Source: Eledone cirrhosa (taxonomy: Eukaryota). Taken from it: a stretch of DNA of 64,000 bases. Positions 4,348 to 58,725 of this stretch are shown in pieces. Position 1 is the first letter of the stretch; every line of letters starts with the position of its first letter. The DNA is taken from the NCBI GenBank assembly GCA_964016885.1, contig OZ024740.1:139624001-139688000 (forward strand), given 5' to 3'. The translations under genes and the position numbers were made by a program. Below the pieces are notes generated by a model, which saw only the letters and a list, made by a program, of their open reading frames with translations, ran no database searches and had not been told where the DNA came from.

Positions 4348-4719
4348 GCACGCACTATAAGGGAGAGAGAGATAAGAAACGGGCTAAACTTTTCGACTGA
4401 TAACGAAACTCCCGCAAAATACATATACACACACAATTAACTACAAAAACATATGTACAATAAAGAAGCGTGATAAAACTCCCTTCAATGCCAGACAAGA
4501 TTCAATAAGGAACTCGTATTAAAGTCGTTTGACGTCCTAGAAGCAGTAGTAAAGTTTCTCTTAAACGTTAAGCCACCAGAACCATAACAGAAATCAGAAG
4601 TTATTTTGGACATTTGTAATTCTAGATATATAAAAAAAACAAAAAACCTAATAATCATAGCTAGAATCGGTGCGTGAGTATTTGGTGCCCTATGATCTTC
4701 GACCCCTTCTTCCAATTAT

Positions 4720-5010
4720 GCGCTCTTTCACCCAAATTCCGCTTACAGTTTGTTAAGCTGACGAATCTAACGGTGGTCACGCTAAGGAAATTACTATGAC
4801 TGCATTTTCTACTCCACAGTCCAACTTACCCATGCCAACTCAGTTGACAGGTCATAATATCATACGACCCTCTCTACCGCTTTATATGTTTCTACAACGA
4901 TGCTATGCAACAAAGATGTTTAGCAGTTAATTTATTGATCGCGGGAAATTATTATATATGTAAGATAATTACAAAATTTGTATAAAACTGTCTTACTTTA
5001 AAGTTCAGTA
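4720..5010. mobile_element. Old non-autonomous DNA-transposon-like repeat (second copy about 32590-32930)
   Basis: Both copies share tttattgatcgc..tatat..attacaaaatttgtataaaact. Confidence 0.45.
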
Positions 5011-5229
5011 ATGAACCGCTCAAAGTTCTGCGCCCTAAGCGGCTGCCTAGTTAGACAAATCGTAACGCCGGCACACAGAGACAAATGGCAAACTTATGGG
5101 GCTATCAAACATGCAATACACACACAAACATACACATATGTGTCTTGGACCTCAGTCAGTTCCGACGACGAGCGCTTCAGTTGTTTGATGAGTGGCATTC
5201 TACAGACACATATATTCTTAAGATAGTTT

Positions 5230-5400
5230 GCAAGGAGATTTAGCGCGACACAATGTGTAACAAGGCTGGCCTTTTAATCCACAGGTACATGTAAATTTTT
5301 ACAGCTGAGTGAACTGGAGCAACGTGAAATAATATGCCTTGCTAAAGAACTCATTACTTTACGATCCTAAGTCGAACACTCGAACCACTAAGCCATGCGC
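5230..5400 (-). mobile_element. Degenerate CORE-type tRNA SINE
   Basis: cagctgagtgaactggagcaacgtgaaat...cttgct and aaccactaagccatgcgc are reverse complements of the family at 31357. Confidence 0.55.
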
Positions 5401-6698
5401 CGTTACACACACACACACACATACACATACACACGCACACACGCATTGAAACTCATCTCGCACTTGTGTAAATGTCTTAAGTTCGATCAATTGGAAATAG
5501 CAAAGCAAACGATAACCAGCAAAAGAGAAATACAGGTAAGGATTGGAAAGTATGAACCTCAGTCTGTTTCGATAACTTTTACCGTCGTTCGATCAATGGA
5601 ATAGCCAGTTCGGGGAATGTACAAGCAAGTGGTTGAGCATGTCACAGGCGTGTACCTTTAATGTAACTCTAAGGGAGATTCAGCGTGGAACAGTGTGTGA
5701 CACGGTCGAACCTTTGGTATCGTTAATCAGACATGCATCCAGACAATTTCCGACTATGGAAAATGACACTTGCCACATATACCAGGCTGTGAATCGACCC
5801 AAGACCTTATCATTGCGAAGCAAACTTCTTAACCTTTCGACTATACTGCATTCAAAGACATTGAATACTAAAGTATTACATACTCTGTCTGGATAAAAGA
5901 CTGGATGGCCATGGTTTGACAGCCGTTCATTAAAGTCCTGCTCAACTATGGCTCACCTGGCTCTAAATAATATAACATACACACATAGAACACACTTCTA
6001 CACGTGATAGTCATACATATAAACAAAAAGAAGAGAAAGAAAAGAGAATGCAAAGATAAATTATTTAGAATATTCGGCATTTTCTTTTATATAATTAAAA
6101 ACATGAAATTAATTTTATTTTTAAAATGTCAGAATGCAATAAAAAGAACAAACATAGTAATAGAAAGAAACTGCAGTTTAGTGTTCCCACCCGACTTTAG
6201 TTCTACATAACTTCAGTGCAATTATTATTATTTTTTTTTTTTTTTCTTTAAATTTTGTAAGATACTATTTCCATAGAAATAAAAACGAGATTTAACTTGT
6301 TTTTAATACTTTCGTTATTGTATTTTCCGTTCATTAATGCTTCTTTCATTTACTGAACATTTTCAATTTGTGTTTGTAGTCAGCTAAATGAAAGTAAACA
6401 ACAGATATTTCGTTCATCATGCCTTCCAATTTCATGTTGACAGTGAACAATAGCAATCAGTACAAGAAGTGGAAATTTTTACTTTTCTTTTAAATTTAAT
6501 CGACATAATCGAAATCTACACCTTTGAAAATATACATCTGAAAAAAATGTATTTAATAAATTCGCAATATTAAGAACGTTATGAAGAAACGATTGTGGGT
6601 AGGTGGGGTACTAAACTAATGTTGTACTCTTCTACTAGTTTTAGTCATTAAACAGTGGCCATGCTGGATCACAAAGACACACACATACACACACACAC

Positions 6699-6740
<42 letters not shown>

Positions 6741-6778
6741 TGGGAGAGAGAGAGGGAGAGACAGAGAGATAGAGATAG

Positions 6779-6816
<38 letters not shown>

Positions 6817-6821
6817 GGAGA

Positions 6822-7477
6822 TAGGTAGATAGGTAGGTAGGTAGGTAGGTAGGTAGGTAAGTAGGTAGATAGGTAGGTAGGTAGGTAGGTAGGTAGGTAA
6901 GTAGGTAGGTAGGTAGGTAGGTAGGTAGGTAAGTAGGTAGGTAGGTAAGTAGGTAGGTAGGTAGGTAGGTAAGTAGGTAGGTAGGTAGGTAGGTAGGTAG
7001 GTAGGTAGGTAGGTAGGTAGGTAGGTAGGTAGGTAGGTAAGTAGGTAGGTAGGTAGGTAGGTAGGTAGGTAGGTAGGTAGGTAGGTAAGTAGGTAGGTAG
7101 GTAGGTAGGTAGGTAGGTAGGTAGGTAGGTAGGTAAGTAGATAGGTAGGTAGGTAAGTAGGTAGGTAGGTAGGTAGGTAGGTAGGTAAGTAGGTAGGTAG
7201 GTAGGTAGGTAGGTAGGTAGGTAGGTAGGTAGGTAGGTAGGTAGGTAGGTAGGTAGGTAGATAGGTAGGTAGGTAAGTAGGTAGGTAGGTAGGTAGGTAG
7301 GTAGGTAGGTAAGTAGGTAGGTAGGTAGGTAGGTAGGTAGGTAAGTAGGTAGGTAGGTAGGTAGGTAGGTAGGTAGGTAGGTAGGTAGGTAGGTAGGTAG
7401 GTAGGTAGGTAAGTAGGTAGGTAAGTAGGTAGGTAGGTAGGTAGATAGGTAAGTAGGTAGGTAGGTAGATAGGTAGA
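6822..7477 (+). repeat. (GGTA)n microsatellite, about 650 bp
   Basis: Read directly; occasional AGTA/GATA variant units. Confidence 0.98.
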
Positions 7478-10848: not shown

Positions 10849-10906
10849 AGGAAAAAGTATGACCCCGACGACAGAGCTCAAGCCGTTTCGACGGCTTGGG
10901 CGTGCT

Positions 10907-10963
<57 letters not shown>

Positions 10964-11068
10964 CGAAGGAAATGTGGTAAGGAACCAGATATGAACCATA
11001 ACGCACCAAAGTACTCAATACTTAGGGTAGTAGAGTGGGTAATAGGAACAAGTAGGGTCCTACTTGTT

Positions 11069-11072
<4 letters not shown>
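10849..11072 (-). mobile_element. Two fragments of the about 200-bp half-hammerhead palindrome family
   Basis: gaccccgacg..gagctcaagccgtttcgacggct (10861-10897) and aacgaaggaaatgtggtaaggaacc...taggaacaagtagg|gt|cctacttgttccta (10962-11072). Confidence 0.8.
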
Positions 11073-19340: not shown

Positions 19341-19545
19341 GAAAATGTTTGACCCTCGACGGCAGAGCTCAAGCCGTTTCGACGGCTATTTCTGGACCCG
19401 AAATTTGCGTCCAGAAATAGCCATCGAAATGGCTTGAGCTCTGCCGTCGGAGTCAAACATTTACCTGCTACCCACTCTACTACACAAGGTATTGAGTACT
19501 CTGGTGCGCTATGGTCTATCTGGTTTCTTACCACACTTCCTTCGT

Positions 19546-19546: not shown

Positions 19547-19577
<31 letters not shown>

Positions 19578-19578
<1 letters not shown>

Positions 19579-19725
19579 TAGGATATGGTAAAAAAAAACA
19601 GGTGGACCATAACCCACCAGAGTACTCGATCCTTGGGGTAGCAGAGTGGGTAATATGAAAAGATTCTGTGTTCGGATCTAGCTGTCGAAACGGCCGGAGC
19701 TCAGCCGTCGGGGTCCTGAATATTT
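19578..19725 (-). mobile_element. Diverged copy of the same family
   Basis: ggtggaccataacccaccagagtactcga...gtcgaaacggccggagctcagccgtcggggtc. Confidence 0.65.
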
Positions 19726-30881: not shown

Positions 30882-31193
30882 CTATATATTGGGCTTAAAG
30901 TTTTGGAAGGAATGTCTGAAGCGGTGCTGGTAAGTTGCGAACACTTCAGATTTTTTGTTAAGTAGGTTACGGTTAGAGAAGATAATAGTGTGGGTCTCTA
31001 GTATACAGAGGTTACAAAATTTATTAGGTGGTTTGTACGAAGTCGCGCTACCTATCACTTCCCATTTGAGTGTGTAAGGTTTATTTTTAGTTTTTAGATA
31101 GTGTATGTAGCTAGATAGTGAGGTGGAGCTGGCTAGACTGTGCTTTTTGAACGAGTGGATGTGCGAATTATAACTGCTCTGTAAATCATCTGA
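30882..31193 (-). pseudogene. GIY-YIG endonuclease C-terminal fragment of a Penelope-like element (Naiad/Chlamys-like); not in the ORF track because it has no start codon
   Basis: 103 open codons: ..SYNSHIHSFKKHSLASSTSLSSYIHYLK..KPYTLKWEVI..SYKPPNKFCNLCILETHTII..LLNKKSEVFATYQH..*. Confidence 0.75.
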
Positions 31194-31356
31194 TGTTATT
31201 ACATTGAGCGATTTAACTTACTGGTAATAAGGTAGTAATATATTACTGCCTACCACTATTTAGGGTTTGTAAAAATATATATAACTACAAAAGGTTTTTG
31301 TATTTGCATAACCATAAATAGTATACTTAATACTATATATATATATATATATATAT

Positions 31357-31780: not shown

Positions 31781-31846
31781 ATTTTATTATACATATTTCA
31801 GAAGTACGTGAATCATGTTCAGCAGTACGTCCTCATCAGATAAAAT
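31781..31846 (-). ncRNA. Minimal hammerhead
   Basis: Reverse complement: ATTTTAT-CTGATGA-gga.GTAC..TGAA-catga-TTCA.GTAC.tct-GAAA-TATGTA-TA^-ATAAAAT, with a 7-bp stem I. Confidence 0.75.
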
Positions 31847-32080: not shown

Positions 32081-32109
<29 letters not shown>

Positions 32110-32112
<3 letters not shown>

Positions 32113-32308
32113 GGAACGAGTAGGACCCCGACGGCTGAGCTCAAGCCGTTTCGACGGCTAATTCTAGACTCAGTTCAGAGTTAGCCGTCGAAACGGCTTG
32201 AGCTCAACCGTCGGGGTCCTACTCGTTCCTATTACCCACTCTACTACCCTAAATATTGAGTACTCTGGTGCGTTATGGTCCACCTGGTTCCTTACCACAT
32301 TTCCTTCG

Positions 32309-32310
<2 letters not shown>
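32110..32310 (+). mobile_element. Half-hammerhead palindrome family copy in (TA)n
   Basis: Palindrome 32110-32232, then a tail ending ttccttcgt(TA)n. Confidence 0.9.
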
Positions 32311-32374
<64 letters not shown>

Positions 32375-47288: not shown

Positions 47289-47573
47289 GAAAAAAAGATG
47301 AAATCGAAAATGCAACAGGAATCTTATTTTATTTTTAAATATATGTATTTATTTGGTTCCTTTACCGGTTTCGCAGTTCTTCTGCTTTTCAAAAGTAGAG
47401 TTGAGATGGAGGGTCTGTGGTTTTTCTCACATCTGATGTGAGAAAACCACAGATCCTCCATCTCAACTCTACTTTTGAAAAGCAGAACTGCAAAGCCGGT
47501 AAAGGAACCAAATAAATATATATATTTTTTTAAAATAAGACTCCAGTTGCATTTTCGATTTCATCTTTTTTTC
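47289..47573. mobile_element. About 285-bp palindrome with a U3/A8 hammerhead in each arm
   Basis: Centre at 47434 (cacatc-t-gatgtg). The HHR is intact on - at 47359-47396 and degenerate on + at 47471-47505. Confidence 0.8.
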
Positions 47574-51867: not shown

Positions 51868-53804
51868 ATGTTCCGTTATTAACCACAGGGGCACAAAAGA
51901 ATGGGACATATACAAAGGGGAAAGTTTACATACAATAAAAACGTGTAAAATACTATCACAAATGCGATTTAAAAAACAATCGATTTTCCCCAATAGGGGG
52001 AGACATTACATATGGGTAACACATACCCCCCGAAAAAATGTGCAACCTTCATCTCCAGCAGTACGAAGAGTGAGTACCCCTTTCCTCTCTTCCGCTTTTT
52101 CCTCAACCTACAGGCTGATATAGAGAGAAGGCCCATTCACTCGGGCCATTCTCGCCACTTTCATCCACCTTTCATGAAACTTGCTGAGGTACAGCACCTC
52201 TCTCTCCATCCTGATTCTTCTTCCAAAGTGGTATTTGAAAAAAAGAATCAGTTGTTGGCCGGATAGAAAGGTGTCTGACCTCAGCCCTTGTAAATATCGT
52301 CCACCATACAACCTCTTTCGCCATAGCTATCACACAGAGGAGAACCGCCTCTCCTTCGTTTTTGAAGGAGGGTGGCGGTTTAATCATGACAATGGACTAC
52401 AGTCGGTCTACATAGCCCCACAGGTTGGTAACGCCTGGGCTGTGTACGAATGCGTGGGCGACGGTTTGTTCGTCTCGCACGCATCTCTTCTTCGAAGGGT
52501 CTCTGCCCGGGCGCCCGTGTCTGTAGAGCTAGTCTCGAACTGGTAGAGCTCCTCGGTAGCACTGTCAGGCCAGGAGTTTTGGAGGTTGTCCATCGGTCCC
52601 GGATGGAAGGTCCTACCGAACAGACTGGCCAGTTCGTCTTCCTCTACGCCTAGAGTTTCTCCGAGCGCGTCGTCGCACTTGCTGCGGACCAGCATTCGAT
52701 GTGCCAGTCACCCATTTTCCTCGGTCTTTGCTTGACCCAGGACTGCAGCTCGGTCAGCGAGACGAGTCGTGGGAAGGCTCGCCTCACGAACGGAGCCCAC
52801 ACCGGTTGTCCGGTGAGGAATACGTGGAGGTGCCGCAGCCTGAGCGCGTGTTTGCGCATCGTCAGCCACAGCATCCCCAGCCCTCCGTTGGAAGGGTGTT
52901 GGCAGCAGATGGATCTTCTCACCAAAGGAGCCCGCTTCTTTCAAAGGAATTGGAAGAGCGCGCGCTCCATTTTGGTGAGCGTTTTGGCTGGACAAGGCAC
53001 GACGGTCAAGCGGTACTAGATGACGGACGCTATAAAAGTGTTCGCCACCTCCGCTCGACCTTTCAAGGATAGTTTGCACTCGGCCCACTTTTGGGTGAGT
53101 GCAAACACCTTGGCCGTCACCTCGTTCCAGTTATTCTCCACCTGGAGGTCCGGACCAAACCAGACCCCGAGCGGCTTCACCGCTCCTTCCGTCCAGCTTC
53201 CGACGACGCCATCGGAAGGCATCGGTTTGCCTCTCCACGTTTCGAGTTTCAAACCGATGGACTTGTCCCGATTCTGCTTCGCTCCTGTGAACCTTTCGTA
53301 TTCCTTCAGTAAGGTGCCAACTTCCTCGATTTGCGAGGTGCTCGACACCATTACTGTCACGTCGTCGGCGTAGGCCGACGCCGTTTTCCACGGTCCCTGT
53401 TCCAGAAGGATGCTCTGTAATAGCTCCAACTGCCGCAATAGTGGCTCGAGAGTCAGTACGTACAGAAGGGAGGAGAGAGAGCATCCCAGTTGGATGGATC
53501 GCGTGATATGGAACGGCTCCGAGAGGTAGCCGTTCACCTTGACCCTTGAGCAGATGTTGCTGATGTGCATTGCAGCAATGCAGCCCCTGAACACGGGTCC
53601 GAAGCCTGTCGCCTCGAGCACCGCATCCAGGTAACGATGGTCAACACTATCGAAATCCTTAGACTGATCCAAGTTGATCAGGGCCCCACCGTAGCCGGGT
53701 TTACACCCAACCCTCTCTACGATGTATCGCATGAGGTGGAGGTTGTCGCGTATGGACCTGGTCGGGATTGCGCATGTCTGCGCTTCTCCCACCAGGTTTT
53801 TGAC

Positions 53805-53807
<3 letters not shown>
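51868..53807 (-). mobile_element. 5'-truncated Tx1/L1-clade LINE (RT domain plus 3' UTR)
   Basis: QTCAIPTRSIRDNL, LINLDQSKDFDSVDHRYL, GCSLSSLLYVLTLEPL, SAYADDVTV, LSLKGRAEVAN, NGGLGM. The 3' end is gtggttaataa and (TA)n lies at both ends. Confidence 0.92.
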
Positions 53808-53835
<28 letters not shown>

Positions 53836-53837
<2 letters not shown>

Positions 53838-54033
53838 CGGAGGAAATGTGGTAAGGAACCATGTGGACCATAACGCACCAAAGAACTCAATACTTAGGGT
53901 AGTAGAGTGGGTAATAGGAACGAGTAGGACCCCGACGGCTGAGCTCAAGCCGTTTCGACGGCTAATTCTGGACTCTGAGTCCAGAATTAGCCGTCGAAAC
54001 GGCTTGAGCTCAGCCGTCGGGGTCCTATTCGTT

Positions 54034-54038
<5 letters not shown>
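53836..54038 (-). mobile_element. Half-hammerhead palindrome family copy in (TA)n
   Basis: 125-bp palindrome 53914-54038 centred on 53976, with one mismatch. Confidence 0.9.
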
Positions 54039-56432: not shown

Positions 56433-56841
56433 ATTATTATTATTAGTAGTAGTAGTTTCTCAAATAGTCGTTCGGCATACATTTACTCTGCAAATCTTGT
56501 TGACTTTTAGTTGTTTGCTTAAGGCTCCTTGGTGACATGTTTGTTATAAACTGCAAGTAAGGGCGCCATACATCGCTCTCAGTAAAGGTGAACCCATAAT
56601 ATTGGGGCCGGCCGAAAGCCACTTGTTTTATCTCCCTTCGGCTGTCATATCTATTTCCTCATAAATACGATTATCTAACACCTGTCTTAATGTTATTTCA
56701 TAACCTCTGTTATCTCCACCTTACTCCTGGAGAGATACAAGTGACCTGAGGTGCTCTTATCTGCTTACACCTTTAATGAAACATCTTAATACTTTTACGG
56801 ATAAACAACATAGTAATTAGAAGTATATGTATATATATATA

Positions 56842-58725
<1,884 letters not shown>

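What the first reader, a model, noticed from the sequence alone, without database searches (positions are those of the whole stretch)
32110..32310. About 200-bp family that folds back exactly at the hammerhead stem II loop
Copies at 19341, 32110 and 53836 share a fixed 3' end (ttccttcgt|TA-repeat). Each has GAAA-CGGCT-loop-(A)GCCG-TC^-GG(G/A)GTC, the 3' half of an HHR, preceded by a long hairpin (GACGGCTA..TAGCCGTC). Where CUGAUGA and the stem I 5' strand should be there is instead an inverted copy of the 3' half. Arms within a copy match each other better than they match other copies (aatgtttgac/gtcaaacatt versus gtaggac/gtcctac). Inference: the cDNA snaps back on the ribozyme hairpin and self-primes, creating a new palindrome and disabling the ribozyme at each insertion. 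This would be a retro-route to MITE-looking elements.
Basis: partly seen in the sequence, partly recalled or inferred. Interest (0 to 1): 0.8.

Follow-up and report, generated by a model that had tools for sequence, protein, structure and literature searches.

The report
Palindromic stubs of a Penelope retroelement
These 200-base mirror-image repeats are stubs of an abundant Penelope-like jumping gene that carries an unusual predicted hammerhead ribozyme; they most likely form when two short DNA copies of the front end of its RNA are joined head to head in a TA repeat, rather than by one copy folding back on itself.

Summary
The family is real: six pieces in the window and over 30,000 exact motif matches in the genome. 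Its parent exists: a Penelope-like element with an intact 719-aa RT/GIY-YIG ORF bearing Hydra-clade motifs (L127). The stubs are the 3' end of its pseudo-LTR. Arms end sharply at one place, just 3' of the stem II apical loop, but snap-back is disfavoured: centres rarely keep the loop, the tailless arm is often the longer one, and lone arms end at the same place. Best model: two cDNAs primed at two internal RT start sites likely run off an RNA 5' end (possibly a transcription start inside the ribozyme) and are end-joined. The inverted-plus-tail architecture and the U3:A8 core are each in print; the nested start and mass MITE-like output are inferred and untested.

The parts
32113..32170 (-). 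Tailless inverted arm: copy of parent positions +1 to +58 (+1 = A at L127:4549); outer end meets (TA)n at the first TAT site
32171..32171 (.). Centre of the palindrome: one base not templated by the parent (G on the minus strand)
   Evidence: against L127
32172..32229 (+). Forward arm, +1 to +58: 3' half of the hammerhead (stem II 3' strand, GAAA 32190-32193, stem III, putative cut after C32212, stem I 3' strand)
32230..32309 (+). Tail, +59 to +138, between the two inferred RT start sites (both at TAT); continues in the parent into the 5' UTR and ORF
32090..32112 (.). Left (TA)n target tract
32310..32339 (.). Right (TA)n target tract
53836..54035 (-). Second full palindromic stub; centre CAG (53975-53977, minus strand), a G next to +1 on both arms; interrupts a LINE-type RT frame
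19341..19545 (+). Older stub of another subfamily; 11-nt centre 19398-19408
19575..19725 (-). Divergent stub: tailless arm joined to a tail whose own arm is mostly missing
10960..11071 (-). Short stub whose tailless arm begins at +43, one base past the predicted ribozyme cut
10849..10896 (-). Lone tailless arm (to about +12) with no mirror partner

Best explanation
The 200-bp palindromes are extremely 5'-truncated insertions of a Hydra-type Penelope-like retrotransposon, most likely made when its protein cuts both strands of a (TA)n tract, primes one cDNA at each of two internal RNA start sites, and the two short cDNAs are end-joined head to head. Shown: the parent element, the two fixed outer ends (+61 and +141, both at TAT), the sharp 5' limit near +1 and the variable junctions. 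Inferred: both strands are primed separately (as shown in vitro for a lizard Penelope protein); both cDNAs stop because they run off the RNA 5' end, likely a transcription start (TATA-like box at -29, initiator-like TYAGT at +1) that lies inside stem II of the U3:A8 hammerhead, so this RNA would lack the core and not self-cleave; junctions are sealed by microhomology-type end joining. Long insertions (12 of 133 tail-bearing arms reach beyond -100) would come from uncut read-through RNA of tandem copies.
For: Parent: 19 of 87 arm hits run on into a shared upstream sequence; L127 holds an inverted tail-bearing copy, a partial tandem and an intact 719-aa ORF with 2,054 relatives at E<=1e-30 among 8,000 scored. 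Outer ends: tailless arm ends at +61 in 60 of 66 palindromes; 89 of 101 tails are followed by ATATAT; loose TA ends at L127:4609 and 4689 in contigs of two runs. 5' limit: 67 of 133 tail-bearing arms and 71 of 91 tailless arms end between -8 and +8, only 2 and 1 between -100 and -9 or beyond -9 respectively; summed contig depth steps about 20-fold at +1 in run X1 (may be the assembly's own sample). Independence of the two arms: tailless arm longer by >10 nt in 20 of 66, e.g. L111 (-61 versus +98); 7 independent lone-arm loci, 6 ending at -3 to +2 (L132 misclassified and the three L141 repeats counted once); arms fused at +1 to +14 to stubs of other hammerhead-bearing families; centres with T or A runs and templated patches. 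G at -1, absent from 31 long arms, occurs at 11 of 88 arm ends against 5 for A (by eye), as cap copying would give. Literature: PAc cleaves and extends both strands from two internal start sites that bound the tail (PMC11167929, parts 1-2 of 4 read).
Against: No RNA data could test the start site. The G excess is weak (11 versus 5). The TATA-like box is not kept in every subfamily (L167). The 5' limit also coincides with a U-rich tract and the stem II loop, so drop-off or a nuclease cut would look alike. Later deletions at a cruciform centre could shorten either arm and so mimic the arm-length asymmetry. Arms nearly always share a subfamily (28 of 38 identical at +46..+56), which fits one RNA or one source locus but equally fits snap-back. 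No directional arm asymmetry was found. About 5 of the 100 listed loop-spanning centres have the form that snap-back on the distal hairpin would give.
Confidence: 0.6

Rival explanations
1. Two separately primed cDNAs, but the 5' limit is set by RT drop-off on the U-rich tract at -1 to -11 or by a nuclease cut in the stem II loop of read-through RNA, not by a transcription start.
For: The limit lies at the 3' edge of the predicted apical loop and of a U-rich run; rU:dA hybrids are weak (established knowledge); promoter motifs are only consensus look-alikes; about one arm in six reads through (5,768 versus 33,083 matches).
Against: Non-templated G next to +1 and -4, initiator-like sequence at the limit in the subfamilies aligned, almost no ends between -9 and -100.
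Confidence: 0.2
2. One reading: one cDNA copies past the stem II loop, snaps back on the hairpin and self-primes, making the mirror arm (a variant of the self-priming model of Arkhipova et al. 2013).
For: Arms end beside the apical loop; arms share subfamily within copies; a few centres keep the loop (about 5 of 100 listed); self-priming was proposed for Penelope palindromes (PMC3846280, passages).
Against: Loop-keeping centres are rare; the form expected for the L127 subfamily is 0 of 100 listed; tailless arm often longer; lone arms and cross-family fusions end at the same place; a mirror copy has no reason to stop at +61 in 60 of 66 cases except by separate priming or TA pairing.
Confidence: 0.1
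3. Perfect palindromes are inserted and their centres are later cut as cruciforms and repaired, which makes the variable centres and unequal arms.
For: Centres show deletions and templated patches typical of end joining; centre-break repair of palindromes is known (recalled, no call).
Against: It cannot explain a fixed 5' limit shared with lone arms; inverted pairs with longer arms persist (L113, L167/L168). It may contribute without being the origin.
Confidence: 0.07
4. A MITE or Helentron-type DNA transposon that targets TA repeats.
For: Small size, high copy number, uniform outer ends.
Against: Inverted repeats are not at both termini; the sequence is the end of an RT-coding element; 5' ends vary per copy.
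Confidence: 0.02

Closest known systems
Hydra-clade Penelope-like elements (Craig et al. 2021, PMC8557442; section 11, passages, and Files S1/S2 part 2 read)
   Same: C-terminal GIY-YIG; RW(K/R), DKT, CxCx5C linker, no CCHH, CxxC and CxH around E/N; (TA)n target; hammerhead near the 3' end; inverted 5'-truncated copy and one-sided tail.
   Different: Unit about 3.6 kb with a long 3' UTR; tail 80 bp, not 30-40; all 26 Hydra rows of File S2 have a CTGA core and short stems, here UUGANAA with a 5-bp stem III and long stem II; the listed octopus family Hydra-1_Obim has a different ribozyme.
U3-A8 minimal hammerheads of Schistosoma Cercyon PLEs (Cervera and de la Pena 2014, PMC4209133; parts 1-2 of 4 read)
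   Same: U3-A8 in place of C3-G8; unpaired base after G10.1 region; pairs of motifs on opposite strands noted there too.
   Different: Those have no real helix III and need dimers; this one has a full helix III and a large stem II insert, and a C3:A8 mismatch subfamily (3 of 16 arms).
PAc (Poseidon) two-site internal RT initiation (Frangieh et al. 2024, PMC11167929)
   Same: Both strands cut and extended, two start sites bounding the tail, AT-rich target, ribozyme cleavage not needed for insertion.
   Different: In PAc the start sites lie inside the ORF and are not homologous to the target; here they lie in the 5' UTR at TAT triplets that match the TA target.
Adineta vaga Penelope inverted pLTRs with junction palindromes (Arkhipova et al. 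2013, PMC3846280; passages)
   Same: Head-to-head inverted pLTR, optional tail, TATA/Inr-like motifs in the pLTR.
   Different: Explained there by self-priming; the end map here favours two primings.
MITEs
   Same: Short, palindromic-looking, tens of thousands of copies, no ORF.
   Different: No terminal inverted repeats at both ends, no transposase parent, per-copy centre.

Membership tests
EN+ Penelope-like element | Single ORF with RT and GIY-YIG endonuclease | tested here: met
   719-aa ORF with YRDDG and VIYQ..AYIG; relatives carry PF26215 and the best hit also PF01541. Direct Pfam scan of the ORF gave 0 families.
EN+ Penelope-like element | Partial tandem (pLTR) and inverted 5'-truncated copy | tested here: met
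   L127, L099, L113, L116, L153
EN+ Penelope-like element | Tail on one end only | tested here: met
   54 of 58 palindromic arm hits pair a tailed with a tailless arm
Hydra clade | RWK, DKT, CxCx5C, CxxC and CxH motifs; CCHH absent | tested here: met
   RWR (K to R), DKT, CNCPDRSIC, CNLC, CKH; one Cys only in the GIY-YIG core
Hydra clade | Insertion into (TA)n | tested here: met
   89 of 101 tails followed by ATATAT
Hydra clade | Length generally under 3 kb | tested here: not met
   about 3.6 kb per unit from L127
Hydra clade | Canonical (CUGANGA) hammerhead | tested here: not met
   UUGANAA in 12 of 16 arms, CUGANAA in 3
Hydra clade | Groups with curated Hydra families in an RT tree | not tested
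   curated sequences were not loaded
Hammerhead ribozyme, type I | Three helices around the core with G10.1-C11.1, GAAA and NUH | tested here: met
   MFE fold of L127:4495-4600 (energy not better than shuffles, z -0.25); 94% of cells paired in 22 copies; L153 and L116 copies prefer a rival hairpin in MFE
Hammerhead ribozyme, type I | Core conserved with N7 free; 3:8 pair kept | tested here: met
   pairwise identity 93% core, 95-98% stem 5' strands, 34% N7, 62% upstream UTR in 16 arms chosen without the 5' half
Hammerhead ribozyme, type I | Compensatory base changes in stems | tested here: inconclusive
   0 pairs changed on both sides; stems nearly invariant
Hammerhead ribozyme, type I | Rfam hammerhead model match | tested here: not met
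   no hammerhead hit on L127:4400-4800 at E<=10
Hammerhead ribozyme, type I | Self-cleavage after GUC | not testable with these tools
   indirect only: 5 of 50 mid-range ends at +41..+43, p=0.023 uncorrected, but 7 at +36..+38
MITE | Terminal inverted repeats at both ends and a transposase parent | tested here: not met
MITE | Target-site duplication | tested here: inconclusive
   both flanks are (TA)n, so none can be read; no empty site seen
Non-LTR retrozyme | Tandem units each with a complete type I hammerhead | tested here: not met
   stubs are inverted pairs lacking the core

The most novel reading that the evidence does not exclude
This retroelement hides its transcription start inside its own ribozyme: the mRNA begins in stem II and escapes cleavage, read-through RNA from tandem copies carries a slow U3:A8 hammerhead, and because RT starts internally 58 and 138 nt from the cap, most events yield two strong-stop-like cDNAs that are ligated head to head. 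The tens of thousands of stubs are then a genome-wide record showing that Penelope inverted repeats arise by twin priming, not self-priming, and a retro-route that mass-produces MITE look-alikes and perfect hairpins.
Probability: 0.4. Interest if true: 0.65.

Novelty: new variant of a known kind. Interest (0 to 1): 0.45.

Why it matters
How Penelope-like elements make their inverted repeats and tails is stated as unresolved in the papers read (PMC8557442, PMC11167929). This family offers tens of thousands of natural junctions, an intact source copy and a small RNA region on which twin priming, snap-back and the start-site idea can be told apart in vitro. It also warns that TA-flanked palindromic 'MITEs' can be retroelement stubs, and that CUGANGA descriptors and Rfam miss a ribozyme present in over 5,000 copies here.

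Tried and rejected
Predicted CTGANGA parent: 43 matches (30 read were chance centres or fusions with other families) and 18 matches (all read, none a parent). Linked arm asymmetries seen in best-hit loci (14 of 30 at +36) were a selection artefact: 2 of 38 in the unbiased set; in 30 loci with that variant it sat on 17 tailed and 13 tailless arms and never on the partner arm. Naiad clade considered from the (TA)n target and rejected: the endonuclease is C-terminal. Splice acceptor at TTTAG (+1/+2) considered and rejected: many arms keep those bases and no fixed upstream exon appears. Pile-up of ends at the ribozyme cut: inconclusive in 133 arms; a larger sample was not obtained, so in vivo cleavage stays open. 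No RNA holder listed. One search used a mis-indexed structure; one search is the corrected count. Random 200 kb gave 5 pieces, too few for statistics. Paper searches for a printed description found none: Penelope+octopus+palindrom+transposable element (1 paper, irrelevant passages), strong-stop/twin priming/pLTR, Penelope+MITE+palindromic+hammerhead (0); subscription journals and Repbase entries were not searched, and bioRxiv supplements were not visible.

Full report
Observation. The three copies are as described. Each is (TA)n, an inverted arm of about 58 bp, a short centre, the forward arm, an 80-bp tail and (TA)n. BLAST finds three more pieces in the window. The window lies in a 3.0-Gb animal genome (G000:C1:139624001-139688000). 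Exact motif counts are 33,083 for the arm and 32,002 for the tail end, with 0 for the reversed controls, so the family has tens of thousands of copies.

The parent. I fetched the DNA around the first arm matches on C1. Of 87 arm hits, 19 continue into a shared upstream sequence. L127 shows the whole arrangement: an inverted tail-bearing copy, a 5'-truncated unit, then arm and tail running on into a 5' UTR and an intact ORF (4780-6939, 719 aa), a 3' UTR and a tailless arm ending in (TA)n. [quoted passage not shown] All window pieces align to L127 positions +1 to +141, with +1 = A4549. Inverted truncated copies with a one-sided tail and (TA)n targeting are described for Penelope-like elements.

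The ribozyme. The real upstream half reads ACCCC-UUGANAA-G(N)UCGGCUA, 5,768 exact matches. L127:4495-4600 folds as a type I hammerhead with stem I ACCCC/GGGGU, a long stem II and a 5-bp stem III (energy no better than shuffles). In 16 long arms chosen only on the 3' motif and upstream alignability, pairwise identity is 95% for the stem I 5' strand, 93% for core positions, 98% for the stem II 5' strand, but 34% at N7 and 62% in the upstream UTR; A8 is in 16 of 16, U3 in 12, C3 in 3. That is the selection pattern of a hammerhead with U3:A8 replacing C3:G8, a variant reported from Schistosoma PLEs but absent from the 26 Hydra rows of File S2. No compensatory pairs were seen because the stems hardly vary, Rfam finds nothing, some copies prefer a rival hairpin in MFE folds, and activity is untested. 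Ends at the predicted cut are only weakly enriched (5 of 50, p=0.023 uncorrected).

End map. In 101 copies anchored on the tail end, 66 are palindromes; the tailless arm ends at +61 in 60 of 66 and 89 of 101 tails are followed by ATATAT. Both outer ends are TAT triplets of the RNA, matching two internal RT start sites bounding a tail, as shown in vitro for PAc, which also cuts and extends both strands. Adding 32 bystander copies, 67 of 133 tailed arms and 71 of 91 tailless arms stop between -8 and +8, 12 tailed arms run past -100, and only 2 tailed and 1 tailless arm stop in between (ends at -5 to -8 are partly alignment overshoot). Contigs of run X1 show the same step at 4549 and loose TA ends at 4609 and 4689 (this run may be the assembly's own sample).

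Snap-back or two cDNAs. Snap-back needs the cDNA to copy past the loop and would leave the loop in the centre. Palindromes whose arms both reach +1 within 10 nt number 4,147, with 32 different centres among the 50 listed; matches passing the loop number 283 with some loci counted twice (a stricter pattern, so the ratio is rough), and only about 5 of the 100 listed have a snap-back form. A mirror made from the tailed cDNA cannot be longer than it, yet the tailless arm is longer by more than 10 nt in 20 of 66 cases against 9 the other way. Six of 7 independent lone-arm loci end at -3 to +2, and arms are found fused at +1 to +14 to stubs of other hammerhead-bearing families, often through 1-6 nt of microhomology (these were picked by a CTGANGA pattern and could also be deletions between neighbours). 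Within-copy arm identity is real but explained by subfamilies, and a seeming directional asymmetry was an artefact of best-hit selection. Later deletions could mimic part of the arm-length signal, so I put two separate primings at about 0.75.

Why the limit. A TATA-like box starts at -29 and initiator-like sequences cover -4 and +1; Drosophila Penelope has its promoter and start in the pLTR (passages). G, never seen at -1 in 31 long arms, is the commonest base there that no parent or arm explains (11 of 88 ends against 5 for A, plus 5 of 6 single-base centres that are G/C; by eye), as copying of a cap would give (recalled for L1). This is suggestive only, and a U-rich drop-off or loop cut is a live rival. 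If the start is real, the mRNA lacks the ribozyme core and the stubs are run-off products akin to retroviral strong-stop DNA (analogy, inferred).

Verdict. Real and abundant, a new variant of a known kind. The Penelope origin is near certain; architecture and core variant are each known; the sharp limit inside the ribozyme, the case for twin priming over self-priming and the MITE-like output were not found in the searches made. Papers seen: PMC8557442 (passages, section 11, supplement part 2), PMC11167929 (parts 1-2 of 4), PMC3846280 (passages), PMC4209133 (parts 1-2 of 4), PMC2377424 (passages), PMC5625713 (passages), bioRxiv 10.64898/2026.07.22.740005 (part 1 of 5). Earlier scan notes on similar stubs in other genomes agree but are unchecked and not counted as support.

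Noticed in passing
window 63203 (-) and 16205 (-): Two copies of another repeat with a canonical minimal hammerhead (CTGATGA, short stem II, GAAAC), next to microsatellites; a similar CTGATGA motif at 31839 (-).
   Followed up: partly
window 56839-58422: Tandem and inverted copies of a roughly 490-bp repeat, each with a CTGATGA..GAAA motif (57118 -, 57655 +, 58143 +); likely another Penelope-type insertion.
   Followed up: no
window 47334-47560: Another long palindrome family beside TA tracts, also seen flanking L089 and L093.
   Followed up: no
window 30891-31199 (-): Fragment of a related Hydra-type endonuclease (36% identity to the L127 protein).
   Followed up: no
window 53016-53806 (-): LINE-type RT frame cut off by the 53836 stub; the other flank is unrelated.
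   Followed up: partly
L031, L040, L045, L047, L050, L053, L055, L060: Arms of this family fused at their 5' ends to stubs of at least five other families with the same arm-plus-tail layout and canonical hammerheads.
   Followed up: partly
L153, L103 and L167: Subfamilies with C3:A8 (mismatch) or U3:G8 cores that still spread, suggesting cleavage rate is not limiting.
   Followed up: no
L127:4492-4501 with 4590-4609: Stem I can extend to the first RT start site, with subfamily-specific sequence on both sides, so the ribozyme fold may present that start site.
   Followed up: partly
L116:3891-5249 (-): A second, more divergent Hydra-type ORF nested inside a copy of this element.
   Followed up: no
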